Positions 37,322 to 58,336 of a DNA stretch of 64,000 nt are shown here, in pieces. A program made the position numbers and the translations under genes. Source of the DNA: a virus. The stretch is from positions 1 through 64,000 of the IMG/VR virus record IMGVR_UViG_3300016665_000824, one strand, 5' to 3'. How positions within the stretch are numbered: position 1 is the stretch's first letter; the number at the start of each line of letters is the position of its first letter. Under the pieces are notes generated by a model. It was not told where the DNA came from, made no database searches, and saw nothing but the letters and a program-made list of their open reading frames with translations.

Positions 37322-37351
37322 GGTAACAAGGACTTGAGTCCTTGTTACCTT
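37320..37351. terminator. bidirectional terminator hairpin (14-bp stem) between convergent moron and tape-measure genes
   Basis: AAGGTAACAAGGAC ttga GTCCTTGTTACCTT; both stop codons lie in or at the stem. Confidence 0.65.
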
Positions 37352-40300: not shown

Positions 40301-43300
40301 TCGTCTGCACGGAGAATCCCTGCATCTTGAAGGGCGTTAGCCGTTTCAAGCAACTCGCCCAACTTCGCCTTAAATAGCGCAGGATCTCCCGCAGACTTGT
40401 TTAAAGCGTCAAGGGCTGCATTATATTTTGAAGTTGCCTGCTCGATCGCATTACCAATACGAGGAAGATCAATAGCCTGAATTTGCAGGTTTACCGACTT
40501 GTAGGATTCTTGAAGTTTTCTAAGGGCTTCAAGTTCTCGATCTCTTTCTGCGTCTAAACCTTCTACAGCTTGAACCTGATTAATGATTGCCTCGATATTG
40601 TTGTTTCTTTCGGCGATCTCCTTCTTCTTATTCTCGATCTGAATATCAAAACGCGCAGCACCATCTTTGTCGCTTAGCGCTTCCGCCTTGGACTTTTCCT
40701 GCTCTAATTTAATTAAATCCTCTTGGAGTTTCTTCTGAGCAGACAGTCCTATTCCTAGATCAACCCGCCGAGAAGCTGACTGATTTAAGACGTTTTTATT
40801 ATCTTGCAATCTTATTTGGACGGCTTTCTCTTCAAGATTTCCTGCGCGATCGCCTAGACCTAACTTGTCGGAAGCGCCAAACGTTACCGTTCTTAGCCCC
40901 TCTCTTGCCGCGTCACCTGTAAGAGCAAAACCTTCTGTAACGCGAGTACCAATATTGTCTCTCTCTTTTTTAACCTTCTCCCTCAACGCGTCTTCGGAGT
41001 TGGTTGGTTTGCTTTGTAATCCCCTCAACTCTTTGAGTTTTGCGAGCTGTTGATCATACAGCTTTAAAGTGGGGTCATCTTGGAGGATGCTCTTGTCTTG
41101 GATTGAGGCAACATATTTTTCGCGTTCTGAGGTTAGGTTTGCTAGCTCAGAAGCGGCATCCTTTCCTTGCGATTTGTTTAGGATCGCAACCCTTGCGTCA
41201 CTATCTTTGAGCGCATCGTTGAGTTTGTCTACATTGGCTGTAGCTGCTTTTGTTTCCTGATCGACGTAGCCAACCAAGGTTGTTATTGCGGCGAAAGCTG
41301 CGCTTAACAATAATGTAGGACCAATTTCTGCGGCGAGGGCGGCGAAGGATTTGCTGATACCTTTGACATTCTCGGAAATAAACGAGGTAGCGCCTACAGC
41401 ACCCTTTTTGAGGTTTGAATAAAGTCCACCGACACTAACGTTCGCGTTTTGAGTGAAATCAGCAAAGCTAGACTTAGCTCGCGAGCCAAAATCTTTGACA
41501 CCAGAAAGAGCATCTTGGAAACCTGTCTTTAACCCAGCACCTAAATTTTTGAGGCTTAAATCGGGGAGAGAAATAGACTTGACTTGATTGACAAACTTAT
41601 CTATAGCGATACGAGAATTAGCCAAAGAAGCGGGAATATTTAGCTCTCTAAAGAACTTATCGAGTCCCAGTCTCGCGTTTGCAAGAGAGGTAGGGACGTT
41701 GATCTGGGAAAATGCTTTTTCAACCCCGTTGCGGAGGTTTACCAGCGAGGCAGGAATGTTGATATTTGCAAAGGCGTTCCGAATGCTAGCTTTAGTATTC
41801 TCAATTTGCGCGGGGAGATTTGCAAAGATACCAGTTTTTTGACTCGAATCCTGACTGAACCTTCCCTTAATGTCAGATATAAAACTACCAATAGAGTCGC
41901 CCAAGGACTTCAAAGAAGTTTTTGTCTTTGTGGCGATCGCTCCAATATCTTCTGCGAACTGTTTTGTGAACGGGACGGGAATTGGATTGGCAATAATCTG
42001 ACTTCGGAGCGACTTGATTCTGTCGGTAGTCTCCTGATAACTTTTAAGAGCCGCCGCACGAGCTTCGGGGGTTAACGACAGATCTGTAGAGTCTTTTTGG
42101 CTCACGATCGCCTGCTGTTTTAGTCCAGAGACCTCTCGTTTAGCGGCGACAACCTGAGTAGGATTTAGAGTCGTTGACTGAACTGGCTTGCCCCCAAGTA
42201 TTTCTCGAACACTATCGTTTAGCTTCTTGATGCGCCCAAAGGTTTCGCCAATACTGGCTCCAGCACCGCTAATTCCCGTGTTAATTGTCTTAAATACATT
42301 GGAGATTGTGCCACCAAACAGCTTGGTAACAGCGATCGCGATTAGCAATCCGCCAACTACTTTTTGAAAAGGATTGGAGTTCTCGCCAAAAGTAAAGAAC
42401 GGCAATATCGTGTCTGCAACCACCTTAATTACTGGTGCTAATACCGACCCTACCGTATCCGCAAACTTACGAATAGCTGCGGTTACATCCTGAATGATTT
42501 TTTGTAGACCTTTGTTCTTCAGGATTAACTGATCGAAGAAGACAAAACCAACAAATGTTCCAGCACCCAACAAGGCTGTTGATACGGCAAAAGACCTTGC
42601 CGCAGCTCCTGCCGCTTTTAATGAATTAGAGAAGATGCTGTTTACTTTCTCGGTATTTGTAGCGACATCGGCAAACTTGCCCAAGCTCTTGGCTGCGTCC
42701 GCAATCAACGGGCTAAACGAGCCAAATAGTTGGGACTTACCAACAATGCCTGAGAAAGCTGTTAAGGCGATCGGCGCTGCCTTCGTAAATCCTTGCAGTG
42801 CGGTTCCTAGCGCAGGAAATGCTTGAGTAAGTCCAATCAGTTTTACCCCAAAGCCACCTAGTGTTGGCAAAGCGGCAGTTATAACTCCCGCGAATGGCGA
42901 GAACGCACCGAGAACTTTGCCCAACTCTTTTTGGACTAAGCCAGCAGCACCAGGGATCTTGTTTAGATTCTCCGCCAACAACAGGAATCCAGCAGACCCT
43001 CGACCGACAACCGAACTTAAATTAGCAAAAGTGTTGACAACCCCGTTAGTACGCTTGTCAAGCAGGAAGAGAACTTCTCCCAAACCTGGTACAAGATTAA
43101 ACATCAACGAGAAGCCTTTGTTTAATGCCCCGATCGCGCCCGAAAGAACTTTTGCGCCGACGGAGATGCCGATCCAAATCCCTCCAAGAGGACCTACAAC
43201 ACCTGCAATTTGTTCAAACACATTAATAGCTGGCTGAACAACAGCAAGAGTAAGGCTCATCGCATCGGAAAAAGCCTTTACTGCGCCAGCGAGAGACTTG

Positions 43301-45780
43301 AATAGGTATTCTGGAACCTGCCCAAAGATCTGGAAGAATGGCCCCGCGAGACTTTTTAGGGTCGCAATCACGTTCTTGAATACGTCAAACAGTATTCCTG
43401 CGAGACTCCCTACTTGAGCAGCGATCGCGTCTTTATTCTTTGAGAAATACTGGTAAAACCCGTCAAGTTCCGCTACTAAAGGTGCGAGGAATTTCTCCCC
43501 AGCGAGTCTGCCGATCTCATCAACTAGCTCTTGAATATTGCTAACAATCCCACCCACGGACTGAGCAGCTAGCTTGTTTCCAGACTTAAATGCTTCTAAT
43601 CGACCTAAAAGCTCTTTGACGAAGGTTCCTTGAGACTTCCACTTAGCCACCATCTCATTGTTGAGGTTAAGCGATTTGGCAAGAGCTGAGTTTTGGTCAA
43701 TAGTTCCCGAAGTTATACTAACAACCTCTTGACGGGCTTGATATAAAGGTATGCCAAGCGTTCCGAGTGCGGCGGCGAACGAGGTTGTAATATTAGCAGC
43801 GTCATTCAAGGACGCGCCAATGTTGCTTGCCTGCCCAGCAACGATCTGAAAAACCCCGACAAGATCTTTACTGGTTACGCCGACCAGCTCTAACGAGTCT
43901 TTACGAATTTTATCGATCGCCCCTTCAACCGCAGGGCCAACCGCCTTGATCGCTTGAGTTGGATCTGATACGCGATCGCCATTAACTACGATTCTATTGG
44001 TTGCCGCTAAGCTCGCCTGAGTAGAGAGTAGTTGCTCTTGGAGCCTGATGTTTTGCCCAATCAACAGATCGAAAGGGCCGTTTTGTACAAATCCTTGGAG
44101 TGCCTGCAATCCCAATCCCAAGAAAGCAAGTCTCTGAGATACTTCAAAGATCGCGTTGGTTGCCTTGCCAGCACCTTCGCTAATTAGATTGAATACTTCT
44201 AGTGGTTCCGTCGCCCCCGCCACTGGAGCAACCACTGCGGCGGCAATATCTACAGGTTCTTGCAGCTTCGGGGCTATCTCTTGAGTCTTTTGAAACCCCT
44301 TAACGATAACATCATCAACACTATCGATGACAGTACCGACTTCGGCAAGGATTGTTGATCTCAGTCCATCAACAAAATTCTTACCTGCGATCGCGCCAGT
44401 ATCTTTTAAAAGCGAACTAAATGTTCCGCCAAAAAACTCGTCAATCTTGGTTGCAAGTTTTTGCAGTGAGCCATCCCCGCTTCCGATAGAATCAATCGCC
44501 GCGCCCAACCCTCCGTCAATAGCATCGACAGCTTTTAGGGCTAAATTCCTGAGAGGCGCAAGGATGCTAGTATCTTCTACGCTAAACAAGCTATTGAGAG
44601 CCTGTCCAACGCCTCCCTTTTGAGTCTCTATTAAAGGGCGGAGGATGGCAAAAGCGGATCTTAAATCCTCTGGAATTGCTTTTTCTAGTCCATTAAATAA
44701 CTGTCCAGACAACGCATTTCCAAAATCTTGCAACTCATTAGAGGCAACAATCGACCCCAAATTTGCCACCCCGATCTTGTTGGCAATCAGTTTTGCTAGT
44801 GGTGGTAGTGGCAACTTATCTACAAGCTGAGGGATTCGCCCCGCTAGGCGGTTGATCAGCTCAGATACAGAGCCGCCTAACTGTTCGTCAAGAATTTTAA
44901 ATTGATCGGTCGCCTCAGATCTGCTGCCGACGATTGCCCTGCCGACCGATCCTCCTAAAGCGCTAGATAAGCGCCCTACAACTCTTTGTCCGTCCTCAAC
45001 GTTTGGCGCGATTGCGTTAACGGCAAAAGCTTTAGCAGCACCCGATACCGACCCACCAGCCAACTGCTTCGACACTTCCGACAGCAATCCAGTTTTTGCC
45101 GCAGTCCGAAATGAGTTGGCGACAATTGAGGTTAAATCCGCCCCGAAAGCTTGGTTAACAATACCTTTTAAAGCGTCGGGGAGTCCTCCCCCAACAACGC
45201 CCGAAATGAGTGAGTCGGCGATCGCGTTATCTAGCGTTCCAGTAAAAGCCTCAACTCCCACTCCAAGCTTGCGCTGAATTTCTTGATTTAGCTTTGAAGC
45301 CCTAACATTTGCTTCTAACGCTTTACCGAAACTGTTTGCAGAATCGCTAAGTATCTGCGTAATTCTCTTGCCGTTATCCGAAAATATTGCAGACTGAGCT
45401 TGCTCTGCCGACTGCTTAGATAAGAATCCTCCTCCGACATCTTTTCCTGCAGAGGTAATCCCCTTGATTACCTTTGAGAGCGGAGCTAGTTTTGAAACTG
45501 CACTGTCGGCGACATTCGAGATCTGTTCTAAAAATATTTTGCCCGACTGCGTATCTAGTACATCTCGAACCGACTGAATTGCGTCTCTCAGCCCTCCAAA
45601 CGTGCCAATCGCGGTTGCCCCTACCGTGCTGATCGTTCCGCCAAGGGCTTGTACAGATCCCTTTGTTACGTCCGCAACAACACCAACACTTTTTAGACCA
45701 GCAGCTATCTCCGAAACTTGTTTGCTTGCTTGATCTTTCGCCTGTATTAAGATCTCAACAATATTGGTTTGCGGAGCCAT
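37345..45780 (-). CDS. tape measure protein (2811 aa)
   Basis: giant ORF with Gly/Ala-rich hydrophobic N-terminal half and ~1000-aa coiled-coil (Q/E/K/A-rich) half, upstream of baseplate/fibre genes. Confidence 0.75.
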   Translation of the reverse strand: MAPQTNIVEILIQAKDQASKQVSEIAAGLKSVGVVADVTKGSVQALGGTISTVGATAIGTFGGLRDAIQSVRDVLDTQSGKIFLEQISNVADSAVSKLAPLSKVIKGITSAGKDVGGGFLSKQSAEQAQSAIFSDNGKRITQILSDSANSFGKALEANVRASKLNQEIQRKLGVGVEAFTGTLDNAIADSLISGVVGGGLPDALKGIVNQAFGADLTSIVANSFRTAAKTGLLSEVSKQLAGGSVSGAAKAFAVNAIAPNVEDGQRVVGRLSSALGGSVGRAIVGSRSEATDQFKILDEQLGGSVSELINRLAGRIPQLVDKLPLPPLAKLIANKIGVANLGSIVASNELQDFGNALSGQLFNGLEKAIPEDLRSAFAILRPLIETQKGGVGQALNSLFSVEDTSILAPLRNLALKAVDAIDGGLGAAIDSIGSGDGSLQKLATKIDEFFGGTFSSLLKDTGAIAGKNFVDGLRSTILAEVGTVIDSVDDVIVKGFQKTQEIAPKLQEPVDIAAAVVAPVAGATEPLEVFNLISEGAGKATNAIFEVSQRLAFLGLGLQALQGFVQNGPFDLLIGQNIRLQEQLLSTQASLAATNRIVVNGDRVSDPTQAIKAVGPAVEGAIDKIRKDSLELVGVTSKDLVGVFQIVAGQASNIGASLNDAANITTSFAAALGTLGIPLYQARQEVVSITSGTIDQNSALAKSLNLNNEMVAKWKSQGTFVKELLGRLEAFKSGNKLAAQSVGGIVSNIQELVDEIGRLAGEKFLAPLVAELDGFYQYFSKNKDAIAAQVGSLAGILFDVFKNVIATLKSLAGPFFQIFGQVPEYLFKSLAGAVKAFSDAMSLTLAVVQPAINVFEQIAGVVGPLGGIWIGISVGAKVLSGAIGALNKGFSLMFNLVPGLGEVLFLLDKRTNGVVNTFANLSSVVGRGSAGFLLLAENLNKIPGAAGLVQKELGKVLGAFSPFAGVITAALPTLGGFGVKLIGLTQAFPALGTALQGFTKAAPIALTAFSGIVGKSQLFGSFSPLIADAAKSLGKFADVATNTEKVNSIFSNSLKAAGAAARSFAVSTALLGAGTFVGFVFFDQLILKNKGLQKIIQDVTAAIRKFADTVGSVLAPVIKVVADTILPFFTFGENSNPFQKVVGGLLIAIAVTKLFGGTISNVFKTINTGISGAGASIGETFGRIKKLNDSVREILGGKPVQSTTLNPTQVVAAKREVSGLKQQAIVSQKDSTDLSLTPEARAAALKSYQETTDRIKSLRSQIIANPIPVPFTKQFAEDIGAIATKTKTSLKSLGDSIGSFISDIKGRFSQDSSQKTGIFANLPAQIENTKASIRNAFANINIPASLVNLRNGVEKAFSQINVPTSLANARLGLDKFFRELNIPASLANSRIAIDKFVNQVKSISLPDLSLKNLGAGLKTGFQDALSGVKDFGSRAKSSFADFTQNANVSVGGLYSNLKKGAVGATSFISENVKGISKSFAALAAEIGPTLLLSAAFAAITTLVGYVDQETKAATANVDKLNDALKDSDARVAILNKSQGKDAASELANLTSEREKYVASIQDKSILQDDPTLKLYDQQLAKLKELRGLQSKPTNSEDALREKVKKERDNIGTRVTEGFALTGDAAREGLRTVTFGASDKLGLGDRAGNLEEKAVQIRLQDNKNVLNQSASRRVDLGIGLSAQKKLQEDLIKLEQEKSKAEALSDKDGAARFDIQIENKKKEIAERNNNIEAIINQVQAVEGLDAERDRELEALRKLQESYKSVNLQIQAIDLPRIGNAIEQATSKYNAALDALNKSAGDPALFKAKLGELLETANALQDAGILRADEVAGAFQKVATNVSADRDLQIKAQEAITAAYKKEADRRIAIYDAQLSQIQALLATGRISESESIALSGQLEEKKIQAQSEADQKALRARQQILETNANEQKQQIKRDRELAEAQLAAATGDPSKIRQVREAQAPVLQGKIDDTSQQIKDAEARKKALQESISTGVAGDNAAEDVKKVTDELAVLQSRLNSLQSQKGTLDSTLKLSEDTQGQLEGITKQIEDGEKALSSLKAGNAETLQRFNTVKDAPFFNSSEYTAQIKAEQDAIAKKESELRTLQTKRDQLSSIAKPDAERQNLAKNSIADANKKELDLVKATAAQKARLEEDADNKRKDAEAKIAKARSERFVKGLDAQIKETLAAEKVGETQRLAQIAQLRKSGIKLESEIKLQETAERKRSITLELQLEQQKQKAIADLEKKGVGVSKETKNANLIKVAELSKQLAEAELAAIEGLVSAVRDRLVLESQKYAVTIEQQNLKLERQKLLFTALEKGLENQSRLSESANKLAQSTVALRESEFAALNKIYDRQQAAIRAAGGQGNFADLELEEKKLILAEKLAVLKLNSLKQQQKFEAESLEREIQKRDLLLERKKVENEIAIAKKKVDIASQDAAIKAAELEVKLRPQSEEAKLKLAQAKLGQEKNFLELGGLQQEKGFIADEAKVNEIVNKNDRQALANKQQGETNTAIGDVIGATRDPALQERLQREQLARLTQNTGTAALTTTDVSNAVAAASQPVNVRGASFKNPTSALLGQVEQGGVFTAAPEPKPDNAPFATSFEELAKKYPDKGMAGSFEELNKKYPAQANSFEELNAKYGGKPTEEAKPEQAIASSFDKLTQQIDEGFSKVLVAPDLKVKDLTAGLEAEFNRVSKQISENPVTLKIDDKAFEEAQKKLDKPIALLDEGQLQRAEALAQAFGSLGGKDLVPQQQGNPTGAALGTSGNITVNAPIAINTQSNISSAAGVGNDVQKAVNDTLNNVLRRVAGVTSGVR
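37840..37995 (-). repeat. three tandem ~45-nt repeats encoding SFEEL-x-KKYP inside the tape measure gene
   Basis: GCTCCTCAAA recurs three times on + strand; protein repeats SFEELAKKYP / SFEELNKKYP / SFEELNAKYG. Confidence 0.6.
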
Positions 45781-46171: not shown

Positions 46172-46220
46172 TGATTTTTGTGATTTCTTCACGAAGATTA
46201 TAGCGCGATCGCCTCGCAAT

Positions 46221-48428
46221 TTATCCCTTACCGTTACTGGGTTTTGAGGTTGGCTTATAGACATCATAGAGAGAGCCAATCTTCCCATTCTTCTTAGAGG
46301 CGTATAAAATCATAGGATCTTGACCCTCCATAGGGGCGAAGCCAGCCTTTTCGTAAATACTCTTACGCTTACTGCCAGCCCCATCTTTGTCATAAGCCCC
46401 AGCCGTAAGAATAGAGTTGTCGGGCATAGCCTCAATATGCTTGGCAAACGAAGCCTTTGTCATGCGAATAATTTGTTTTGCTCCAGAAGCCCCAAGGTTG
46501 GCGGACTCCTCCTTGTTATTGGATTCGTTTATGGCGAAAGAAACCTCGTAGACACTTCCTCCAGAAGCTTCTTTTTTGTACACAGTCGTAAAGGTGTACA
46601 AGGCTGGTCCAACAGAAGCTACAGTATAAACCCCACCATTCTTTCTATCCCTGTAAGTGAAGCTGTTCGATTCTTTGTCTACGTCAATAAGATCCCGACC
46701 CTTAATAGACTGAGTTTTTCTTGCCAAGGCGAGCTTGGTCATTCCGATAAGACCTTTTGCTTTGTCTTTAAGGGCTGGGCTTAAATCAGATCTATCCAAA
46801 GCCCGATCCGCCACTTTCCCCAAGGCTAAACTCTGCTTGTAGGTCATAATCAGTGCAACATCTGAAATCTTGTAATCTTTTGTCGCTTGAATATTGCCAA
46901 TACCGACGACTCCAGCTACCACTGAACCTACGCTACCTGCGACGATCGCTGCCTTGCGAGCGCCTTTGTTAGAAAGTAGTCCGATAGCCTTGTCTACTGG
47001 TGTCTCCTTTTTTTGTAGGGGCGGCTGAGGTATAGAGAATTCCGTTTTTGGTTGTTGTGACTCGCTTGGATTACCCCCTTTTGTTGACTTGCCTCGGTTT
47101 GCAGCGATCGCCGCCGCACCACCAACTAAGGCAGCAGCACCTAAACCAGTACCAACATTTCGGGCTAAATTATTCTCGCTTTTTTTCTCGCCGATCTTTT
47201 GACAGGCGTTTCCACGCTGGACATAGCCTTCCTTGCATTTGAGCGTTCTACCCTTGTCGTAGCGCAAAGATACCGACATACGCCCCTCAAGATAAGACGA
47301 ATCATTCTGTAGATCGGCATCAGTCCGCCTTGTAGTTGCACTTTGATAGATGTTGCTAAATAGGTAAAGAACTTCGATATCCTCGTCATCCTCAACCGAG
47401 TCTCCCCTCTTCTCATTTATCTGGGATATCTTCTCGTTTGTTTTAGCCTCTACGTTTTCTCTAAAGTCCTTGAGTCCACCCCTCTTTGTTGCGAGGGTGA
47501 GAGCAGTGCCAAGAAGAATGGTGTCTCGCTCAGCTCTTCTTAGAACCTTCTGAAAAGGAGATAAGGTAGATTCATTCTTACCACCCGAAATCGACTTGGA
47601 CACATATTCTCCCGCAATGCGTTGAATTTCAGGATCTTTAGACCACTCGGAAGCTACGGATGAGCCATATTTCAAGGCTGCGCTACGAGCTTTTGGATTG
47701 GTCAGCACCTCTTTTGCGATAACCATAGAGGCTTTTTTCTTTGCTTCAACTAAGTTTGTTTCGTTACTAAATTCAGGAGCGACAAAAGTTCCGACAGCGC
47801 TGGCTACTTCTGGCTTTTCCGCAAGAATACTCAAAATTGCGGTAGCTTTATCTCTGTAAGCAGGATTGTTTAAATCCTTGATGCGCCTTTTAATCAATAC
47901 TTGAGATAAATTGTCTCCCTCACTTTTGATTTCACCTTTCTTCTCTTTTGACAAAAGGTTTGCCACTACAGAGACAGTCTTGTTCACCGCCACCGAAGCC
48001 GCCTTTTTCGTTGCGCCCAATATAATCTGATTCTTTTTCTGAGAGATCGCAGCCCCAGTTACCGCAACAACGGTACTGGCTCCAGCCGCCAAATACCTCT
48101 TCGCCAGAGGAAGTCCTTTCTCCCCTTTTTTGGAGGCAGTAGAACTCGAAAGAAGGGCAACAGGGGCGGGATCTACGGCTCTGTTTTCTTGCGGAGATCT
48201 TCTCGATGCGATCGCCGCCACACCGCCGACTAAAGCCGCAGCCCCTAGCCCTGCGCTAATATTTCGAGCTAAATCACCCCCAGCCTTCTTCTCGCCAATC
48301 TTCTGGCAAGCAGCCCCGCGCTGTACATAACCTTGCTTACACTTAATCTTCTTCCCCGCATCTTGACGTAGAGCGACAGACACCTGCCCCTCAAGATAAG
48401 CTAAGTCACTGGCTAAATCTCTCGTCAT
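46221..48428 (-). CDS. large modular protein with duplicated Cys-motif + Gly/Ala-zipper module (735 aa); function unknown
   Basis: two copies of YLEG..SV.LR.D.G...KCK.GYVQRG.ACQKIGEKK ... GLGAAALVGG.AAIA. Confidence 0.8.
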   Translation of the reverse strand: MTRDLASDLAYLEGQVSVALRQDAGKKIKCKQGYVQRGAACQKIGEKKAGGDLARNISAGLGAAALVGGVAAIASRRSPQENRAVDPAPVALLSSSTASKKGEKGLPLAKRYLAAGASTVVAVTGAAISQKKNQIILGATKKAASVAVNKTVSVVANLLSKEKKGEIKSEGDNLSQVLIKRRIKDLNNPAYRDKATAILSILAEKPEVASAVGTFVAPEFSNETNLVEAKKKASMVIAKEVLTNPKARSAALKYGSSVASEWSKDPEIQRIAGEYVSKSISGGKNESTLSPFQKVLRRAERDTILLGTALTLATKRGGLKDFRENVEAKTNEKISQINEKRGDSVEDDEDIEVLYLFSNIYQSATTRRTDADLQNDSSYLEGRMSVSLRYDKGRTLKCKEGYVQRGNACQKIGEKKSENNLARNVGTGLGAAALVGGAAAIAANRGKSTKGGNPSESQQPKTEFSIPQPPLQKKETPVDKAIGLLSNKGARKAAIVAGSVGSVVAGVVGIGNIQATKDYKISDVALIMTYKQSLALGKVADRALDRSDLSPALKDKAKGLIGMTKLALARKTQSIKGRDLIDVDKESNSFTYRDRKNGGVYTVASVGPALYTFTTVYKKEASGGSVYEVSFAINESNNKEESANLGASGAKQIIRMTKASFAKHIEAMPDNSILTAGAYDKDGAGSKRKSIYEKAGFAPMEGQDPMILYASKKNGKIGSLYDVYKPTSKPSNGKG
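47080..47330 (-). repeat. intragenic duplicated module, copy B (approximate bounds)
   Basis: DNA and protein similarity to 48190-48428. Confidence 0.5.
48190..48428 (-). repeat. intragenic duplicated module, copy A (approximate bounds)
   Basis: see 47080-47330. Confidence 0.5.
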
Positions 48429-48763
48429 TTCTTGCTCCGCTTTTTAATCATCTTGCTAATAGCTTCAGCTCCATTAGCCACTTTAGACTCAACCTTGCCC
48501 GTAGCTCGACCCGTGTTAAAGATTGCCTTACCAGTATTAAAATCCTCTTTCAATCCTGTTTTACCTTTATCGGCAAGTTTGGCGATCGCCACAGCAGTCA
48601 GTCCCGCGATCACGCCACGACCAACTGCGCCAGCAACACTCTTAATCGCTGTTTTAAGTTTGCCTTTACCACAAGTAGCGCCTTGAGGGATGCAGTAGGT
48701 TTTACCATCTTCTCCTTGGCAGGGTTTGCCGCGATCGCACGTTGTGTCTAGTCTAATCTTCAT
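48425..48763 (-). CDS. small Cys-knot + Gly-zipper membrane-helix protein (112 aa)
   Basis: TTCDRGKPCQGEDGKTYCIPQGATCG then AIKSVAGAVGRGVIAGLTAVAIA; ATGA coupling to downstream gene. Confidence 0.7.
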   Translation of the reverse strand: MKIRLDTTCDRGKPCQGEDGKTYCIPQGATCGKGKLKTAIKSVAGAVGRGVIAGLTAVAIAKLADKGKTGLKEDFNTGKAIFNTGRATGKVESKVANGAEAISKMIKKRSKK

Positions 48764-50468
48764 ACTTATTTTTCACCGCTTTTTCCACCGCAAGTCTGGC
48801 TGCAATACCAATCGCGATCTTAACTATGGGATGAGAACCTTCTGCGTAAGAAGGAGAGGCTTTTTGTAACGCTGCAAATGAAGCTTTCGTGCCTACATAT
48901 TGCGTTGCCGCGTCAGAAAACATCAATAGCGCAGTTTTTTCTGTCTGACCTAACGAGGAGTCGGACAACGTTCTCTCTGTCGCATCACGAGCAACTTTAC
49001 CTCCAAAGGCTCCAACCAAACTAGAACCAATCTCATATCCAAGCATCTTGAGTTTGTCTTTTTCTTGCCTCCCAATCGATTTTAAGGTGACAAAATCGCC
49101 CACTTGCTGGACAAAGTTCTTTTTCGCTTGCGGAGTTTGAATCATGGCTTGGAGGCTTCTGCCTGCGCTTGAATTGCGGAGTTTTCCAATAGAGCGGGTT
49201 AAGCGATCTCCTAGTCCGCCCCTTCCTTTTACTGTGGATAGAATAGCCTCCCCGACCTGCATCCCGTCCCTAGCCTTCTGCCTTAAGTCGTGTTGCTTCC
49301 CCTTAGGGGCATTAGCGATTAGGGCTAGCGTAGTCGCCGAGGCTGCTGCTACCCCTATTGTTGCCAAGGTTCTTGAGGAAATAAAAGGTTTTCTCTTTTC
49401 TGACCCGCAGGTTGCGTTTTTTGGGATACAGTAAGTCTGACCGTCCTCGCCCTTGCACGGCTTTCCGCGATCGCAGGTAGAATCTATTCTATTTTGAATA
49501 GATCTTGTTTTTTTGTAGATGTATCCGCTAGTCCTCCCCGTCTTAGATCTCAAAAAAGAATCTGTTTCTGTACTGATTTTGCGTGCAAACCCCTGATAAT
49601 CCTGAAAACGATCGGTCACAGTTCTGGGTTGCTTGTCCTGCCATTTTTCTGTTAATTGCCTGTTTAGATTGGCGTGAACGTCAGCCAACTCTTTAGCTAG
49701 TGAGCTACTAGGAGAAAATGCCCCCTCTCTTTTAGCCTGTAATACAGAGGTGGTTTCCGCTCCAGTCGCACGAATTTCTTTGATGTTACTAAAAAACGCT
49801 CCTACTTTTAAGTCGGCGGGACTAAAGGCTGACGTATCTCCAACCCCAGCAATATCTGGGTGATTGTGAGTCATCAGTACTGTGTTTTTTGCGGCTTTTT
49901 GATTATACGCATCGGTTATTCCAAGAGAGACCGAGCCTATCTGCCCTTTTCTGATCAGTGAAGGCTTGCCATCCACGTCAAAAGCAAAAAGAGTCTCGAA
50001 ATCATTATGCTGGATCTTTCTTTCTGCCGCGTAAACACTAATTGCAAGTTCTTTGGGGAGGTGGCTATATGCAGGAGCATCTCTTGCGGGAATGCCATTC
50101 TTGGCTACGTCTTCTCGTTCTTTCGCAAACTCCTTATAGGTTTCAACATCATCAAGCTTCTCTCTTATAACCTTATTGGCAATCATGGCTCCCACCCCCA
50201 GCGCTAAAAACTTAGCCGCCGCCTGAGGATCTTTAGAAGCTAATGCGGCTCCTGCCGCTAGTACAGTCAGTTTTGCAAGAGTTCCAGTTCCATCGCCCTT
50301 ACTAGCTGTGGATAGGGAACCAGTTCTAGATATCGGATGACAGGCGGAGCCTCTTTGGACATAACCTTGCCGACAATTGATTTTTTTGTACTCATCCCGC
50401 CTCTCCACATATCGCGATCGCGACAGTAGATACCCCATTTCGTACTCGTTCTTGTTATCTAGTCTCAC
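48753..50468 (-). CDS. large modular protein (571 aa) with N-terminal Cys/Gly-zipper module, a second 4-Cys motif, and an HNHP...SPAD motif
   Basis: GTG start in GTGA overlap with upstream stop; shares modules with 735-aa and 112-aa proteins. Confidence 0.75.
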   Translation of the reverse strand: MRLDNKNEYEMGYLLSRSRYVERRDEYKKINCRQGYVQRGSACHPISRTGSLSTASKGDGTGTLAKLTVLAAGAALASKDPQAAAKFLALGVGAMIANKVIREKLDDVETYKEFAKEREDVAKNGIPARDAPAYSHLPKELAISVYAAERKIQHNDFETLFAFDVDGKPSLIRKGQIGSVSLGITDAYNQKAAKNTVLMTHNHPDIAGVGDTSAFSPADLKVGAFFSNIKEIRATGAETTSVLQAKREGAFSPSSSLAKELADVHANLNRQLTEKWQDKQPRTVTDRFQDYQGFARKISTETDSFLRSKTGRTSGYIYKKTRSIQNRIDSTCDRGKPCKGEDGQTYCIPKNATCGSEKRKPFISSRTLATIGVAAASATTLALIANAPKGKQHDLRQKARDGMQVGEAILSTVKGRGGLGDRLTRSIGKLRNSSAGRSLQAMIQTPQAKKNFVQQVGDFVTLKSIGRQEKDKLKMLGYEIGSSLVGAFGGKVARDATERTLSDSSLGQTEKTALLMFSDAATQYVGTKASFAALQKASPSYAEGSHPIVKIAIGIAARLAVEKAVKNKYED

Positions 50469-53083
50469 TGGCTTTGCTTCCTCGCTTTACGGCGTTGAGT
50501 TAATGTTGCATTGAGTTTTTTGGCGATCGCGTCAGCAGCATTTACCGACAGGTAATCCACTGCGCTGCCGTTAGTTCCTGAGAAGCTATCGGGGTTTTTG
50601 CCCTTGAATGGAGTTCGACTCCAGAGATCGCCGTCCGACCACAGATCGGTCTTTGGAGTTTTTAGCAGATCTGTATCTACTTTTTTCTTATCTACCTTCT
50701 CTCCCCCAAAACCCAGCTCAGGAGTTCCCAAAGTAACAAGGTGAATTTGTTTAGCAATATAAGTCCCAGCAACATTTCCTTGCGAACCTGTTTTTTGCAT
50801 TGACTCCAAGATGTCCAAAGCCCTTTTTGCTGTTTCTCCACCTTGCTTTAGCCCAATAACAGAAATAGCTGGGTATTCAGTTGAGCTTCCCTCGTATGAG
50901 CTGTTTCCGATAGCGTAAAGTTCCGCAGCCAACTTTACAGCTTCAGGGTCTCGTCCCGCTTTGAGGGTCTTACTCATCACGGCTTCGTAGCTTCTTGCCA
51001 TAGTGTCAATAACACCCATAACCCTGCCCCTAGACTGAGGCGGGAGGGTTCGATCAAAAGAAACCACGTCGCTTTGATCGTAGAAGTCTTTCTCTGCTTG
51101 AGACTGAAGCTTTGATCCGTTACTTTTAATTGATTTGCCCAGAACATCGCTAGGAGTTTCTCCATCTCCTATTGCGATAATGACGCTGGGATTTATTGGG
51201 GTAGGCAAAGTCGTTCGTCCACTTGCTACAATCTCTTGAGCCTCAAGAGCAGACTTCGCTATATTGTTGTTGTATTTAACCCTCGCAGCCACAGCAGCAG
51301 TCACCGTTACTTGACCAAGTACGGCTACAGTATTAATCGCTGCTGCTGTGGGATTGTCTTGATATTTATCCTTGATCGCAGAAACCAGATTCCACGTCTT
51401 TCCTAGCGTTGGGTTTACCGCAGTGATCGCCGCCGCTATTTCTTTTGCCCCCTTGTCGCTAGACTTGCTTCCCGCAACAGAATTAGAGAAAAATCCAAAC
51501 GTCTCGCGGATTTTATCTCTGACCGTGCTATCGGTTAAGTAGTCCTCAATCTCATGCCCCTTGACCGAGCTGACAAACTGCGAAAACCTCTTAGGCAGGA
51601 TTGAGAAAGGATCGTTTTTGGAGGTAATAGTGCGGTTGTTAATGTTCGCCCAGTTCTTGTCGTCTTGAGTTGTGCCACCCGTCAAACCGAAGGATGCACC
51701 GCCAAGTCTGGCGATATTGAGGCGCTTCAGAACTTCTCCACCATCAAGCCCCCTAGCAGGCTTGATCCGACTCAAAATTTCGGCAGCTTCATCAACAACG
51801 TTGCCCCCAGAACCGTGACTAACTACGTTCAAAGGCTTGTCACGATACTTAGAGCCATAAGCATACAATTTAGAAGCCAGATCCACCGCAGCTTCGTTTC
51901 TGCCACCGACAATATTGCTTAGATATTTGCCAAAACTTTCTTTAGCTACATACCCCAGATACAAGGGATTGTAGTTCCCGTTTTTATCCTTTGGGAGAAT
52001 ATCGGTTGGAGGAACATTAAACTCCGAATTGTTGAAGGGGATGACCTGCTGGGTCTTGTTAAACCACTGTTCCCGTTTTGAAGTGTCAAGCGGAGTTTTT
52101 AAATATTCAGCGAGCTTATCACCAGAAGAGCCAAGGTTGGAAAATCCTCCTACAGCAAAAGTTAGTTGAGGTTTGGAGGTTGGCTCGACAGGAGTAGTTT
52201 GTGCTCTTTGGTACGCCATTAGCGCCGATTCAGGCAAGCCTTCTTTGTAGCGATCGCGAGCGGTCATCATTACCGATGAGGGAATGCCCAGCAGTACGCT
52301 TGCCGCTAATATGCCTGCCGCAGGGCGATTGTCTCCAAAAAACTTGCTAATCTTTTCGATATCTTTCCATGCGCCAGCAACGGGTTGGGGTAGCAAACTC
52401 TTAAGAGCTTTCTTGCTAGACTCTGCGCGATTCAAGCCTTCACGAACAATCTTCTGGCGATCGGGATTGGCTTTTTGCAGGCGAATTGATTCTCGCAATT
52501 GAGCCTGACTCATATACGAGTAGCGATACACGCCTCGTTTGCGAGCTTCTTCCTTTAATTCCCGAATATTCTTGTTATCAAGATCGTCCTCAACTGGGGC
52601 AACGCCAACAAATTTCGCTTTTTGAACTTGGTTTACCGCATCATTCAGATCGGAAATCTCTTGTCTATTTAAAGCTTCAGGAACGTCAATACGGCAGGTG
52701 TCCGTCTTTGCAATACAAGCGCCTTTGCAGGATAGTCCAACCTTACAGTTCTTGGGCTTAGAAATTTTATCGGTACGTTGACCGATATTGTTTGCATAAG
52801 CAAGTAAGTACTGATCTGCGTCAGTATCTACTGCATCAGTGCGACCATCCTGTACCTGCTTATACTCAATGCGATCTCCTAATTCCAGCCGAATCAGCTT
52901 TTGATCCTTGTCATCATCACGAAACAGACAAGTGATAAGCCCGTCATTACCGATATTGATATTAAGGATCTGATCGATACTCCCGTAGGCGCGAGAAATA
53001 ATGCGAGTTAATAGCCTCGCAATCGTTCTTCTTGCGGCGAGAGGATCTGTGGTTTGAATTGGTGGTGGTGCGATCGCGTACAT
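50465..53083 (-). CDS. large modular protein (872 aa) with N-terminal Cys motif; function unknown
   Basis: N-terminus ...NCKVGLSCKGACIAKTDTCRID; Ala/Val-rich hydrophobic segment; VSHGSGG motif mid-protein. Confidence 0.75.
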   Translation of the reverse strand: MYAIAPPPIQTTDPLAARRTIARLLTRIISRAYGSIDQILNINIGNDGLITCLFRDDDKDQKLIRLELGDRIEYKQVQDGRTDAVDTDADQYLLAYANNIGQRTDKISKPKNCKVGLSCKGACIAKTDTCRIDVPEALNRQEISDLNDAVNQVQKAKFVGVAPVEDDLDNKNIRELKEEARKRGVYRYSYMSQAQLRESIRLQKANPDRQKIVREGLNRAESSKKALKSLLPQPVAGAWKDIEKISKFFGDNRPAAGILAASVLLGIPSSVMMTARDRYKEGLPESALMAYQRAQTTPVEPTSKPQLTFAVGGFSNLGSSGDKLAEYLKTPLDTSKREQWFNKTQQVIPFNNSEFNVPPTDILPKDKNGNYNPLYLGYVAKESFGKYLSNIVGGRNEAAVDLASKLYAYGSKYRDKPLNVVSHGSGGNVVDEAAEILSRIKPARGLDGGEVLKRLNIARLGGASFGLTGGTTQDDKNWANINNRTITSKNDPFSILPKRFSQFVSSVKGHEIEDYLTDSTVRDKIRETFGFFSNSVAGSKSSDKGAKEIAAAITAVNPTLGKTWNLVSAIKDKYQDNPTAAAINTVAVLGQVTVTAAVAARVKYNNNIAKSALEAQEIVASGRTTLPTPINPSVIIAIGDGETPSDVLGKSIKSNGSKLQSQAEKDFYDQSDVVSFDRTLPPQSRGRVMGVIDTMARSYEAVMSKTLKAGRDPEAVKLAAELYAIGNSSYEGSSTEYPAISVIGLKQGGETAKRALDILESMQKTGSQGNVAGTYIAKQIHLVTLGTPELGFGGEKVDKKKVDTDLLKTPKTDLWSDGDLWSRTPFKGKNPDSFSGTNGSAVDYLSVNAADAIAKKLNATLTQRRKARKQSQ

Positions 53084-53085
53084 GA

Positions 53086-54492
53086 CTATTTTTTAGCTTG
53101 CTTCTGGTTTTCTTCTTCCGCCTTGTTTATGGCGTGGGCTGCGAGAGCTAGAGATCCAGCAGTTGCCGCAACGTTCGCTCCGATCGCGCCAGCAACAGAT
53201 GCTCCGCGACCATGACCACGCGATCGTAAAGCTCTGTAAGTGCCGCTACCGATCGGCCCAGCCAGCGCCTGTACCGCCCCCTTTCCAAAAGCTTTGGCAG
53301 TCTCCCCAGCACAATTCTTTTCTTGAGGAATACAGATCTTTCCGCAAGGCTTAGTACCTGAACCGCACTTTGCGTCTTCACGAAGCTGCTCGACGAATGA
53401 GTCGATGCGCTCATCTAAGGATTCGTATCGACGACTTGTTTTATTCCACACTCTATTTGTAGTCATATTCGCTCTTCTAATTCGTTTTGGCATCTCCCTC
53501 CGAGTTGTTTTAACCTCAGATGCTTTTACGTCTACCGTATTATTCTTGTCAACAAAAGTCTGCATAAAACTTCTAGCGAAATTGTCTACGGCGTTAAGAG
53601 TTGATCGGGTGGTAGATCCCGCCTTTTTTGCCGCCTCGTTTAGGTCGATAGTTTTGTCGGCAAGATTCTTCCTCGCGACGCGATCGCGTTCTAGCCTTTC
53701 TTTTGTTTTTCGATACAACTTACCCGCCGCCGCACCTGCGGAACCAGCAGCTCTTGTTAATAGTGGCTTCTGAGGTTCGGCGATCGCACTACCACTACTC
53801 TTGCCCGATTCACTCGCAGCAATAGTTAATCCACCAGTAGATACCTTGGAAGCAGGAGGGTTGTATGGCAGTCGAGTTGGAGGTGGGGGTGTAGGAGTTT
53901 CAGGTTTATTGACGGGGACTAGTGCTCCACCGATTTCTGGCTTGGGCTTGGGTGATGGAAGGCGATCGGGCGGGGCTAGCCTCCTGCTTTCTATCTCGCC
54001 TTGCCGAGCTGCTTCTCGCTCAAGATCTTTCTTAGCCTTATATCGAAAATACTCCTCTTCTGCCGCAGCTTCCTCTGCTCTCCACCGCGCCCTCCGAGTT
54101 TCGCTATCCTTTTCGCCAGCCTTGTTTGCGCCCTTCTCGATAATGGGGCGAAGACCTACGGTGATGGCTTTATTCGCAATTACACCTGCGCCGAGTGATG
54201 CGGCAGTTCCACCGACCTTGATCGCCGCTTTCTTAGCAAACTCACCAACCTTATTGGGAGGTGACTGAGGAAGTATAGAAGCAGGCTCCGTCACAGGGAT
54301 AGGCTTCTGTTCTTCTGGCTTCTTCCTTAGCGCGATCGCTGCTGCCCCCAACCCACCCAAGGCAAGTGCAGCGCCAACACCCGCAGCCCCTTTCTTTGCT
54401 GCACTGGCATTGCGGAAGTATGAATAAGCCTTACGTCCATTTTGCGCTGGGACTTTAACTTCTACCTGTGCGTCCTGTCTTTCAGTACTCAT
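53086..54492 (-). CDS. modular protein (468 aa) with Gly/Ala-zipper helix, Pro-rich linker and C-terminal Cys motif
   Basis: GAAGVGAALALGGLGAAAIA near N-terminus; PSPKPKPE...PETPTPPPPTRLP linker; CGSGTKPCGKICIPQEKNCAG; ATGA coupling. Confidence 0.75.
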   Translation of the reverse strand: MSTERQDAQVEVKVPAQNGRKAYSYFRNASAAKKGAAGVGAALALGGLGAAAIALRKKPEEQKPIPVTEPASILPQSPPNKVGEFAKKAAIKVGGTAASLGAGVIANKAITVGLRPIIEKGANKAGEKDSETRRARWRAEEAAAEEEYFRYKAKKDLEREAARQGEIESRRLAPPDRLPSPKPKPEIGGALVPVNKPETPTPPPPTRLPYNPPASKVSTGGLTIAASESGKSSGSAIAEPQKPLLTRAAGSAGAAAGKLYRKTKERLERDRVARKNLADKTIDLNEAAKKAGSTTRSTLNAVDNFARSFMQTFVDKNNTVDVKASEVKTTRREMPKRIRRANMTTNRVWNKTSRRYESLDERIDSFVEQLREDAKCGSGTKPCGKICIPQEKNCAGETAKAFGKGAVQALAGPIGSGTYRALRSRGHGRGASVAGAIGANVAATAGSLALAAHAINKAEEENQKQAKK

Positions 54493-57440: not shown

Positions 57441-57450
57441 TGGACTCCTC

Positions 57451-58323: not shown

Positions 58324-58336
58324 TGTTTAGTTGCTC

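What the first reader, a model, noticed from the sequence alone, without database searches (positions are those of the whole stretch)
48425..49500. Conserved 4-Cys motif CDRGKPC-x-GEDG-x-TYCIP-x3-ATCG shared by the 112-aa and 571-aa proteins
The 112-aa protein is essentially this motif plus one Gly-zipper helix; the 571-aa protein has the same motif near residue 330 followed by a similar helix; the 468-aa protein has a variant (CGSGTKPCGKICIPQEKNCAG). The CDR codons are written with a HIP1 site (TGCGATCGC) in both copies. Four cysteines at fixed spacing next to a membrane helix suggest a small disulfide- or metal-stabilised knob at a membrane surface.
Basis: seen in the sequence. Interest (0 to 1): 0.6.

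Follow-up and report, generated by a model that had tools for sequence, protein, structure and literature searches.

The report
Four-cysteine mini-domain of phage virion proteins
The shared four-cysteine motif is real and belongs to a widespread but uncatalogued ~20-residue, strongly basic mini-domain that starts each module of the large virion-borne proteins of a cyanophage lineage and also occurs in small secreted bacterial proteins.

Summary
The window has four copies of one 4-Cys motif, in the 112-, 571-, 468- and also the 872-aa proteins. There are three copies of a related 2-Cys motif (571-aa N-terminus, 735-aa twice). CDRGKPC-x-GEDG-x-TYCIP is the canonical form C-x2-G-x2-C-G-x2-C-I-P-x4-C with a 5-residue loop insertion. 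All copies lie in a phage structural operon between the head genes and a 2811-aa tape-measure-like protein. The nearest isolates, Aphanizomenon phage CL131 and Planktothrix phage PaV-LD, carry 7 and 5 copies in the syntenic genes. The CL131 proteins were detected in purified virions by published mass spectrometry. DNA-pattern scans found the motif in 35 viral and 89 genome stretches. Phage contexts are multi-module proteins and portal fusions carrying hydrolase, kinase, ART, RadC-JAB and J domains. Cellular contexts are small lipoproteins and secreted proteins. In phage proteins it usually follows an R-x-D and precedes a Gly/Ala-rich hydrophobic helix. Cysteines occur as four or as C2+C4 only, never an odd number, which favours two disulfides (C1-C3, C2-C4) over a Zn(Cys)4 site. 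No Pfam, NCBIfam or PHROG model covers it. The only structural resemblance is to the N-terminal lobe of LDL-receptor class A modules. The function is inferred, not shown.

The parts
48425..48763 (-). 112-aa protein: R-L-D, then the 4-Cys motif (res 9-31), a Gly/Ala hydrophobic helix (res ~40-63) and a basic amphipathic C-terminal helix
   Evidence: pI 10.0; 4 Cys, all in the motif; 12 homologues at 75-97% identity with invariant Cys.
48671..48739 (-). 4-Cys motif of the 112-aa protein, CDRGKPCQGEDGKTYCIPQGATC (canonical motif with a 5-aa insertion in the C2-C3 loop)
48575..48646 (-). TM-like Gly/Ala-rich helix of the 112-aa protein (res 40-63)
   Evidence: hydropathy 1.77; helix 51-63, low confidence
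48753..50468 (-). 571-aa protein, in order: 2-Cys motif, hydrophobic helix, RadC-like JAB domain, 4-Cys motif, hydrophobic helix, helical C-terminal region
49407..49475 (-). 4-Cys motif of the 571-aa protein, CDRGKPCKGEDGQTYCIPKNATC (res 332-354)
   Evidence: (invariant Cys in 4 homologues)
49314..49376 (-). TM-like helix after the 571-aa 4-Cys motif (res 365-385)
50340..50375 (-). 2-Cys motif CRQGYVQRGSAC of the 571-aa protein (res 32-43), followed by hydrophobic helices (res ~64-101)
   Evidence: predicted hairpin E36-39/E42-45
49689..50072 (-). RadC-like JAB/MPN domain of the 571-aa protein (res ~133-260; E158, H201-N-H203-P, S216-x-x-D219)
   Evidence: A profile of 5 sequences hits the RadC homologue PDB 2QLC at E=0.003, with the Glu, HNHP and S-x-x-D positions aligned.
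53086..54492 (-). 468-aa protein: N-terminal hydrophobic helix (37-55), long charged region, 4-Cys motif (376-394), Gly-rich stretch, hydrophobic helix (433-455)
   Evidence: P0017-P0022 are relatives
53311..53367 (-). 4-Cys motif of the 468-aa protein, CGSGTKPCGKICIPQEKNC (one extra residue in the C1-C2 loop)
50465..53083 (-). 872-aa protein: 4-Cys motif (res 113-130), hydrophobic helices at 255-273 and 580-598, each followed by an alpha/beta-hydrolase-like region (SHGSGG)
   Evidence: homologous to CL131 gp048, 25.6% identity, E=6e-17; gp048 hits DUF676/Lipase_3.
52694..52747 (-).
46221..48428 (-). 735-aa protein with two [2-Cys motif + Gly/Ala helix] units (motifs at 48306-48341 and 47202-47237). 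Its C-terminus looks GNAT-like by eye only.
   Evidence: The GNAT idea was not confirmed. P0046 fuses an 872-like and a 735-like protein.
37345..45780 (-). 2811-aa tape-measure-like protein immediately downstream of the motif-bearing genes; zero Cys, many hydrophobic segments
   Evidence: The syntenic gene is annotated as tape measure in CL131 and PaV-LD.
56529..59827 (-). Head genes that place the cluster in a virion structural operon: DUF2213-type protease/scaffold (496 aa), a 290-aa protein, and the major capsid protein (399 aa)

Best explanation
The motif is one instance of an uncatalogued, autonomous mini-domain of about 20 residues (about 35 with its R-x-D lead-in). Its canonical form is C-x2-G-x2-C-G-x2-C-I-P-x4-C and it is strongly basic. 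It most likely folds as a beta-hairpin stapled by two disulfides, C1-C3 and C2-C4.

In this window it belongs to a set of virion-borne, probably ejected proteins of a CL131/PaV-LD-like siphovirus-type cyanophage. These proteins are encoded between the head-completion genes and the tape-measure gene. They are built from repeated units: [R-x-D]-[4-Cys or 2-Cys knot]-[Gly/Ala-rich hydrophobic helix]-[effector or enzyme domain]. The domains here are a RadC-JAB domain in the 571-aa protein and alpha/beta-hydrolase-like regions in the 872-aa protein. The 112-aa protein is a bare unit without a cargo domain.

Proposed mechanism (inferred, not shown): the proteins travel in the virion and leave it with the DNA. 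The hydrophobic helix inserts into, or assembles in, the host membrane. The rigid cationic knot stays on the extracytoplasmic side, where all cellular homologues live. There it acts as a stable cap or anchor on anionic envelope surfaces and tethers the attached domain.
For: Shown:
- Cys and Gly are invariant across 42 diverse instances, and the window variant aligns as a loop insertion.
- Cysteine occupancy in ~235 distinct instances: 226 have four Cys and 7 have C2+C4 only. No single-Cys losses were seen. More C2+C4 variants, with C3 replaced by F/H/Y/W, are visible.
- The region is a structural operon syntenic with relatives.
- CL131 gp044, 045, 047 and 048 carry 7 copies. ORF044-049 were all found in purified virions by LC-MS/MS; ORF045 gave 123 PSMs and ORF048 175, against 86 for the capsid protein (PMC6293099 Table S5).
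- PaV-LD ORF078R-081R and 085R each start with the motif.
- Scans found 35 IMG/VR and 89 GTDB stretches, against about 13 expected by chance in GTDB by my calculation.
- In 134 phage instances: a hydrophobic helix downstream in 61/123 versus upstream in 6/89; R-x-D within 13 aa upstream in 79/120 versus a 6% background; net charge about +4; Cys frequency outside the motifs 0.23%.
- Cellular homologues are exported. One is a 46-aa Sphingobium lipoprotein that is little more than the motif. Caulobacteraceae and Bdellovibrio signal-peptide proteins end in ...CHK. One is a secreted thermonuclease.
- Relatives are multi-module proteins with hydrolase, kinase, ART, J-domain, JAB and zincin modules separated by the unit.
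- The 571-aa protein has a RadC-JAB domain.
- The motif profile matches the N-lobe of LDL-receptor module LA2, whose C1-C3 are disulfide-bonded according to established knowledge of that family.
Against: - No direct evidence exists for disulfides, for virion location of the window's own proteins, for ejection, or for membrane insertion.
- Phage proteins are made in a reducing cytoplasm, so disulfides would have to form after lysis or in the periplasm.
- Many attached domains (kinase, ART, J-domain, RadC, ParB-like) should act in the cytoplasm. This is awkward for a knot that stays outside.
- The flanks of the hydrophobic helix show no charge asymmetry (+1.9 before, +1.3 after). The helices are 56% Gly/Ala/Ser and only moderately hydrophobic.
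- About half of the phage instances, and all PaV-LD copies, lack the helix.
- Both AlphaFold models are of low confidence (pLDDT 52 and 39).
- The LA resemblance rests on a single module at 23 bits.
Confidence: 0.5

Rival explanations
1. The four cysteines bind one Zn2+ (or another metal). The basic knuckle binds the packaged DNA, so the attached proteins are carried in the capsid and leave with the genome.
For: - Four invariant Cys lie in about 18 residues, with net charge about +4.
- The proteins are synthesised in the cytoplasm, where Zn sites are usual and disulfides are not.
- The motif occurs on portal C-terminal extensions and ahead of cytoplasm-acting effectors.
- Cellular versions often have His directly after C4.
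- One cellular host protein is a nuclease.
Against: - The motif has no CxxC knuckles.
- Variants lose exactly C1+C3 and keep C2+C4 under strong conservation. That fits two independent pairs and does not fit a tetrahedral site.
- Cellular homologues are lipoproteins or signal-peptide proteins in the oxidising periplasm.
- The only structural match is to a disulfide module.
Confidence: 0.22
2. The unit is a virion-incorporation or docking signal. It binds the scaffold, portal or tape-measure complex so that varied cargo domains are packaged, by analogy with the T4 capsid-targeting sequence.
For: - The same short unit precedes many unrelated domains, in several consecutive genes next to the tape-measure gene.
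- The proteins carrying it are abundant in CL131 virions.
- The 112-aa protein is a cargo-less unit conserved in all relatives.
Against: - The same domain sits at the C-terminus of ordinary secreted bacterial proteins, which have no virion to enter.
- Portal fusions need no targeting signal.
- One protein can carry up to 5 copies.
Confidence: 0.15
3. The R-x-D plus knot marks a proteolytic processing site. The prohead protease cuts the multi-module proteins into single modules there.
For: - R-x-D is enriched more than ten-fold just upstream of the motif (79/120 versus 6%).
- The units sit at module boundaries in 1000-2200-aa proteins.
- A DUF2213-type protease is encoded in the same operon.
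- Polyvalent proteins are predicted to be processed (PMC5512222).
- The same modules occur as separate genes in the window and fused in relatives (P0046).
Against: - In the 112-aa protein and in PaV-LD ORF080R the motif is already at the N-terminus, with nothing useful to remove.
- Cellular copies are terminal.
- No processed fragments are documented; the CL131 tables list only full-length masses.
Confidence: 0.08

Closest known systems
LDL-receptor class A (LA) module, N-terminal lobe (Pfam PF00057; e.g. LDLR module 2, PDB 1LDR)
   Same: The framework of the first four Cys is nearly the same, and so is the hallmark C-I-P after C3: [22 protein letters not shown] versus CKxGKxCGxxCIPxxxxC. The profile match is E=3.7e-4, 23 bits. 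In LA modules C1-C3 is a disulfide across a beta-hairpin (established knowledge of the family). This agrees with the C1/C3 co-loss seen here.
   Different: It lacks C5 and C6 and the acidic Ca2+ cage (D-x-S-D-E). It is basic, not acidic. Only LDLR module 2 sequences matched significantly (the Relaxin receptor 1 chimera scored E=0.034). Pfam Ldl_recept_a scores 7.6 bits against a cut-off of 24.1 on one cellular protein, and gives nothing on the window proteins.
Polyvalent proteins of phages and conjugative elements (Iyer, Burroughs, Anand, de Souza, Aravind 2017, PMC5512222)
   Same: Large phage proteins string together several effector domains (RadC-JAB, ART, kinase, zincin, ParB-like, GNAT-like) and are presumed to be delivered with the DNA.
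   Different: That paper's main text has no occurrence of 'cysteine', 'Cys', 'transmembrane' or 'linker'. No LPD-type Pfam family hits these proteins. In the window the modules are mostly split into separate genes, and a Cys knot plus a hydrophobic helix delimits them.
Internal or ejection proteins and tape-measure proteins with membrane-inserting segments (T7 gp14/15/16, P22 gp7/gp16/gp20, lambda gpH, T5 pb2; from general knowledge)
   Same: They are virion-carried proteins with hydrophobic, Gly-rich segments, encoded next to tail or tape-measure genes, and thought to enter the host envelope at infection.
   Different: No sequence similarity was found. Those proteins have no cysteine knot. 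The proteins here carry enzymatic cargo domains and repeated units.
Small extracytoplasmic add-on domains of secreted bacterial enzymes (e.g. the Excalibur domain on secreted nucleases; from general knowledge)
   Same: In cells the motif is a terminal add-on of exported proteins, including a thermonuclease.
   Different: The sequence pattern is different (no DxDxDGxxCE) and there is no Pfam hit.

Membership tests
LDL-receptor class A module (PF00057) | Six cysteines forming three disulfides (C1-C3, C2-C5, C4-C6) | tested here: not met
   Only four Cys per unit in all ~226 four-Cys instances; no C5 or C6.
LDL-receptor class A module (PF00057) | Acidic Ca2+-binding cage (C-D-G-x-x-D-C-x-D-x-S-D-E) after C4 | tested here: not met
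   The residue after C4 is R/K/H and the segment is basic, with net charge about +4.
LDL-receptor class A module (PF00057) | Score above the Pfam gathering threshold | tested here: not met
   No hit on any window protein. 7.6 bits against 24.1 on one Bdellovibrio protein.
LDL-receptor class A module (PF00057) | N-lobe framework C-x5-6-C-x3-6-C-I-P-x4-C | tested here: met
   The profile of 42 instances aligns over the whole core to LDLR LA2, E=3.7e-4.
Polyvalent proteins (Iyer et al. 2017) | Several unrelated effector or enzyme domains in one polypeptide of a phage or conjugative element | tested here: inconclusive
   Relatives meet it: P0027, P0029, P0031, P0039, P0043, L009 and CL131 gp048. 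The window proteins carry one recognisable domain type each: RadC-JAB in the 571-aa protein and hydrolase-like regions in the 872-aa protein.
Polyvalent proteins (Iyer et al. 2017) | Carried in the particle and delivered to the host with the DNA | not testable with these tools
   Virion presence is shown only for the CL131 counterparts, by published LC-MS/MS. Delivery is untested.
Zinc ribbon / zinc knuckle | Two CxxC (or CxxH) knuckles supplying four ligands | tested here: not met
   The spacing is C-x5-C-x3-C-x6-C with variable loops. Variants with only C2+C4 are conserved.
Zinc ribbon / zinc knuckle | Bound metal | not testable with these tools
   Needs biochemistry.
Siphovirus tape-measure or tail-chaperone gene set | Position directly upstream of, or as, the tape-measure gene, with matches to TMP families | tested here: inconclusive
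   The position is met. The only family signal is a sub-threshold TMP_2 hit on the 112-aa protein, 17.1 bits against 30.2.

The most novel reading that the evidence does not exclude
The [R-x-D]-[Cys knot]-[Gly/Ala helix] unit is a general, portable adaptor for crossing the host envelope. A whole lineage of long-tailed cyanophages, and in knot-only form other phages, would use it to carry arbitrary enzymes in the virion and install them in or across the host membrane at infection. The knot itself would have been borrowed from, or lent to, a family of bacterial periplasmic mini-proteins. This would be a new delivery principle for phage effectors and a new extracytoplasmic domain family.
Probability: 0.2. 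Interest if true: 0.75.

Novelty: new variant of a known kind. Interest (0 to 1): 0.5.

Why it matters
- It gives a simple sequence handle, C-x2-G-x2-C-G-x2-C-I-P-x4-C. This handle picks out a large set of 'hypothetical' virion proteins in bloom-forming-cyanobacteria phages (CL131, PaV-LD and many metagenomic relatives). It also shows those proteins to be modular carriers of hydrolases, kinases, ADP-ribosyltransferases, J-domains and RadC-JAB domains.
- It defines a domain family that is missing from Pfam, NCBIfam and PHROGs and that links phage virion proteins with tiny bacterial lipoproteins.
- It yields a directly testable prediction: disulfides pair C1-C3 and C2-C4.
- If the unit proves to be an anchoring or delivery device, it would explain how long-tailed cyanophages bring enzymes to the host envelope. 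It could also be reused as a tag.
- If not, it remains a useful annotation marker of ordinary interest.

Tried and rejected
- Pfam, PHROGs and NCBIfam scans of the window proteins and of 25 further motif-bearing proteins found no family covering the motif.
An earlier attempt failed on a length limit.
- The exhaustive HMM search had to use a two-sequence window profile. It gave only 35 hits at E<=1e-3, which is a floor and not a census. One hit (P0033) is an unrelated repeat protein.
- AlphaFold models of the 112-aa protein (pLDDT 52) and the 571-aa protein (pLDDT 39) were too poor for fold searches. Only the hairpin secondary structure was used.
- tblastn of motif segments against isolate phages found only CL131. 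Megablast of the region found nothing.
- A literature string search for motif cores found no paper. The polyvalent-protein paper does not mention it. The PaV-LD paper is not held.
- The GNAT idea for the 735-aa C-terminus was not confirmed.
- Gene neighbourhoods of eight cellular homologues showed no shared partner.
- Charge asymmetry around the hydrophobic helix, tested as a clue to topology, was absent.
- The exact 2-Cys motif is confined to the close clade, with 4 viral stretches.
- Rejected: a recent duplication or gene conversion as the cause of the shared motif, because synonymous sites are diverged.
- Rejected: HIP1 as a motif-specific feature, because it is genome-wide.
- Rejected: holin or lysis-cassette identity for the 112-aa protein, because it sits inside the structural operon in all relatives.

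Full report
**1. Checking the observation**

- 112-aa protein (48425-48763): CDRGKPCQGEDGKTYCIPQGATC at 48671-48739.
- 571-aa protein (48753-50468): CDRGKPCKGEDGQTYCIPKNATC at 49407-49475.
- 468-aa protein (53086-54492): CGSGTKPCGKICIPQEKNC at 53311-53367.

A six-frame scan added two things:
- A fourth copy in the 872-aa protein: CKVGLSCKGACIAKTDTC at 52694-52747.
- Three copies of a shorter 2-Cys motif, C[KR]xGYVQRGxxC. One is at the 571-aa N-terminus and two are in the 735-aa protein. Each is followed by a Gly/Ala-rich hydrophobic helix.

Both C-D-R triplets are written TGCGATCGC. That 9-mer occurs 47 times in the window against 0.48 expected. The HIP1 site is therefore a genome-wide property, not a feature of the motif.

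The two CDRGKPC copies share 19 of 23 residues, but 12 of those 19 codons differ synonymously (my count). The peptide is under selection and the similarity is not a recent duplication.

Cysteine is almost confined to the motifs: 468 aa 4/4, 112 aa 4/4, 571 aa 6/6, 735 aa 4/4, 872 aa 4/5. The adjacent 2811-aa protein has no Cys. All of the motif-bearing proteins have pI above 9.

**2. The canonical motif**

Homologues of the 112-aa protein number 12, at 75-97% identity, and keep all four Cys. The 571-aa protein has only four relatives.

Bringing in more distant instances shows the general form: C-x2-G-x2-C-G-x2-C-I-P-x4-C, embedded in Lys/Arg. In an alignment of 42 diverse instances the only invariant columns are C, G, C, C, C. 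The window's CDRGKPC-x-GEDG-x-TYCIP form aligns as the same motif with five extra residues in the C2-C3 loop. The 468-aa form has one extra residue in the C1-C2 loop.

**3. Genomic setting**

The genes lie in a phage structural operon, in this order:
- DUF2213-type protease/scaffold, a 290-aa protein and the major capsid protein.
- Small head-tail genes.
- The 468-, 872-, 571-, 112-, 735- and 154-aa genes.
- A 2811-aa tape-measure-like protein, followed by large tail proteins.

Metagenomic relatives keep this order but vary the set between the head genes and the giant gene.

The nearest isolates are Aphanizomenon phage vB_AphaS-CL131 and Planktothrix phage PaV-LD.
- In CL131 the syntenic genes gp044, gp045, gp047 and gp048 carry 7 copies, four of them in gp048.
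- The published LC-MS/MS of purified CL131 particles lists ORF044-049 as virion proteins. ORF045 gave 123 PSMs and ORF048 175, against 86 for the capsid protein, and their pI values are 9.1-10.2 (PMC6293099 Table S5).
- In PaV-LD, ORF078R, 079R, 080R, 081R and 085R each begin with KKKPQCVKPTAYNCGxACINxxxxC. These are essentially their only Cys, and the tape-measure protein again has none.

Virion location is therefore shown for the CL131 counterparts. For the window's proteins it is inferred from synteny and homology (872 aa versus gp048: 25.6% identity, E=6e-17).

**4. Distribution**

I scanned with a back-translated pattern for the strict canonical motif.
- It found 35 stretches in IMG/VR, often several per contig.
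- It found 89 stretches in one-genome-per-species GTDB.
- Under equal base frequencies I calculate about 1.1e-11 per position, which gives roughly 13 chance hits in GTDB. Nine GTDB hits are broken by stop codons and a further handful look spurious, which matches that estimate. About 70 sit in intact, Lys-rich ORFs.

Phage contexts:
- CL131-like multi-module proteins.
- Proteins from 100-280-kb contigs that begin KLKRKKCKKGKSCGASCIPGYHVCMVDIPW, followed by an Ala/Lys/Pro linker and a protein kinase or an R-S-E ADP-ribosyltransferase.
- Portal proteins (Phage_portal_3) extended by the motif plus a kinase or a GNAT-like domain.
- An 1828-aa protein with ParB-like, GNAT-like and ART modules.

Cellular contexts:
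- A 46-aa Sphingobium lipoprotein that is a lipobox plus the motif.
- Caulobacteraceae, Sphingomonad and Bdellovibrio signal-peptide proteins that end in the motif followed by H-K.
- A secreted thermonuclease ending in an 8-Cys version.
- 45 of 98 cellular instances end within 12 residues of the stop codon.

The exhaustive search of 1.84 billion representatives could only use a weak two-sequence profile. It returned 35 proteins at E<=1e-3, many with 3-5 copies.

**5. Architecture of the phage unit**

Across 134 distinct phage-context instances:
- A 19-residue segment with mean hydropathy of at least 1.4 follows within 70 aa in 61 of 123, against 6 of 89 upstream.
- R-x-D lies within 13 aa upstream in 79 of 120, against 6% of random windows.
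- The net charge of the motif is about +4.
- Cys frequency outside the motifs is 0.23% (108 Cys in 46,970 residues), while 564 Cys lie inside motifs.

The spacer from C4 to the helix has a median of 20 aa. The helix core is 56% Gly/Ala/Ser, and both flanks are positively charged (+1.9 and +1.3). No topology can be read from charge.

The sequences fetched show the unit standing before each module of 1000-2200-aa proteins. The modules include:
- alpha/beta hydrolases (GHSGGG);
- PI3/4-kinase-like kinases (GNWDRK);
- J-domains (HPD);
- R-S-E ARTs and a RelA/SpoT-like region;
- NlpC/P60-like regions and HExxH zincins;
- RadC-JAB domains.

One protein (P0046) fuses an 872-like and a 735-like protein. 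The same modules are therefore sometimes separate genes and sometimes fused.

In the window:
- The 571-aa protein has a RadC-like JAB domain. A five-sequence profile hits PDB 2QLC at E=0.003, with the Glu, H-N-H-P and S-x-x-D positions aligned.
- The 872-aa protein is hydrolase-like, through its homology to gp048, which hits DUF676/Lipase_3.
- The 112-aa protein is a unit with no cargo domain.

**6. How the cysteines are probably used**

With a local HMM I tabulated Cys occupancy in about 235 distinct instances.
- 226 have four Cys. This counts loop-length variants in which C1 is shifted by one residue or the C2-C3 or C3-C4 loop is longer.
- 7 have only C2 and C4.
- None has lost a single Cys.

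Further C2+C4 variants, always with C3 replaced by F, H, Y or W, occur in at least eight lineages, phage and cellular. Examples are GKPCGESFISAGKEC, GRKCGESHIPKKFKC, GKPCGKGYISAKLKC, GKRCGKGWIPSDATC and ECGRGYISMAKTC. Single losses would score better than double losses, so their absence is not a detection artefact.

Paired loss of C1+C3 with retention of C2+C4 is what two independent disulfides (C1-C3, C2-C4) predict. A tetrahedral Cys4 metal site does not predict it.

Three further points agree with disulfides:
- The cellular homologues are exported.
- The motif has no CxxC knuckles.
- The only solved structures matched by the motif profile are LDL-receptor class A module 2 (1LDR and others; E=3.7e-4, 23 bits). 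In that family C1-C3 is a disulfide across an N-terminal hairpin (established knowledge).

Both AlphaFold runs place the motifs in beta-hairpins, but at low confidence. The window's 2-Cys motif shares the K-C-K-x-G start and a C...C distance close to C1-C3. It may be the complementary C1-C3-only form. This is an inference.

**7. Most likely mechanism and rivals**

My best reading is as follows.
- The motif is a small, rigid, cationic, disulfide-stapled knot.
- In this phage lineage it is coupled to a membrane-active Gly/Ala helix.
- Together they form a repeated unit that heads each module of virion-carried proteins.
- At infection the helix enters or assembles in the host membrane. The knot stays on the extracytoplasmic side as a cap or anchor on anionic envelope surfaces.

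What is shown: conservation, distribution, architecture, and virion presence of the CL131 counterparts. What is inferred: disulfides, ejection, membrane insertion and the anchoring role.

Weak points:
- The proteins are synthesised in the cytoplasm.
- Many cargo domains act in the cytoplasm.
- Half of the phage instances have no helix.

Rivals are a Zn/DNA-binding knuckle that rides on the packaged genome, a virion-incorporation signal, and a protease-processing delimiter marked by R-x-D. Each is set out with its evidence and refutation test in the rival section.

**8. Comparison with what is known**

- *LA module.* The motif resembles the N-lobe of LA modules but fails the family's defining features: six Cys, the acidic calcium cage and the Pfam threshold.
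- *Polyvalent proteins.* The proteins behave like the polyvalent proteins of Iyer et al. 2017, which include RadC-JAB. That paper does not mention a cysteine motif or hydrophobic delimiters.
- *Family libraries.* None of Pfam, NCBIfam or PHROGs has a model covering the motif in the 35 proteins tested.
- *Literature.* A search for motif cores found nothing.

I therefore rate it as a new variant of a known kind: an undescribed small cysteine domain used in an undescribed way inside polyvalent-type virion proteins.

**9. Limits**

- The census from the exhaustive search is only a lower bound.
- The structure predictions are poor.
- The GNAT idea for the 735-aa protein is unconfirmed.
- Cellular gene neighbourhoods were uninformative.
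- No experiment bears directly on the window's own proteins.

Noticed in passing
window 1-64000: The extended HIP1 site TGCGATCGC occurs 47 times against 0.48 expected. This phage-like region carries the HIP1 signature of its cyanobacterial host at chromosome-like density.
   Followed up: partly
window 37345-45780 (-): The 2811-aa tape-measure-like protein has no cysteine at all. The same holds for the PaV-LD tape-measure protein (1584 aa). The neighbouring proteins keep Cys almost only in the motifs.
   Followed up: partly
window, 4-13 aa upstream of each motif (e.g. 48746-48754, 49482-49490); also L006, P0027-P0043: An R-x-D tripeptide (RLD, RID, RED, RQD...) precedes 79 of 120 phage motif instances, against 6% of random windows. 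It could be part of the domain or a processing site; this is unresolved.
   Followed up: partly
L001-L004 3821-4069; L005 4363-5589 (equivalent to the window gap ~54875-54969): At the same spot between head-tail genes, relatives carry either a Tad2-like gene (Pfam PF11195, an anti-Thoeris family) or an IS605 OrfB/TnpB (Cas12f-like) gene. The window has neither.
   Followed up: no
L030 1483-4146 (-); L035 1-3024 (+): Portal proteins (Phage_portal_3) have an acidic linker, the 4-Cys motif and then a C-terminal domain. In L035 that domain is a protein kinase confirmed by Pfam. In L030 it is GNAT-like by eye only.
   Followed up: partly
L067, L115, L117, L120, L122 (Caulobacteraceae genome contigs): Secreted proteins combine one or two copies of a different 2-Cys motif (CKDAKGKFIKCP) with an Ala/Lys/Pro-rich linker and a C-terminal 4-Cys motif ending CHK. 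This parallels the phage's mix of 2-Cys and 4-Cys motifs.
   Followed up: no
L104, L061, L076, L128 (Rhodospirillales/Acetobacteraceae contigs): ~600-aa membrane proteins carry a 4-Cys motif immediately followed by the C2+C4 variant (CGRGYISMAKTC). L061 and L104, the two read in full, have a Tyr/Arg-rich Y-x-R-x-D/N-G-T-x-V motif near the C-terminus.
   Followed up: no
P0046 (1281 aa) versus window 46221-48428 and 50465-53083: A relative fuses an 872-like N-terminal half with a 735-like C-terminal half that includes both 2-Cys units. This shows gene fusion or fission at unit boundaries.
   Followed up: no
L011 332-2062 and 2148-3560: Two adjacent ORFs in a 130-kb viral contig both match terminase large-subunit families. 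They lie next to a PhoH-like gene and the motif-bearing kinase genes.
   Followed up: no
window 45824-46288 (-): The 154-aa ORF overlaps the end of the 735-aa gene by 68 nt. Relatives-120 aa here, so the real start is probably the internal MKLNPITLG..., which gives a small protein with an N-terminal hydrophobic helix just upstream of the tape-measure gene.
   Followed up: no
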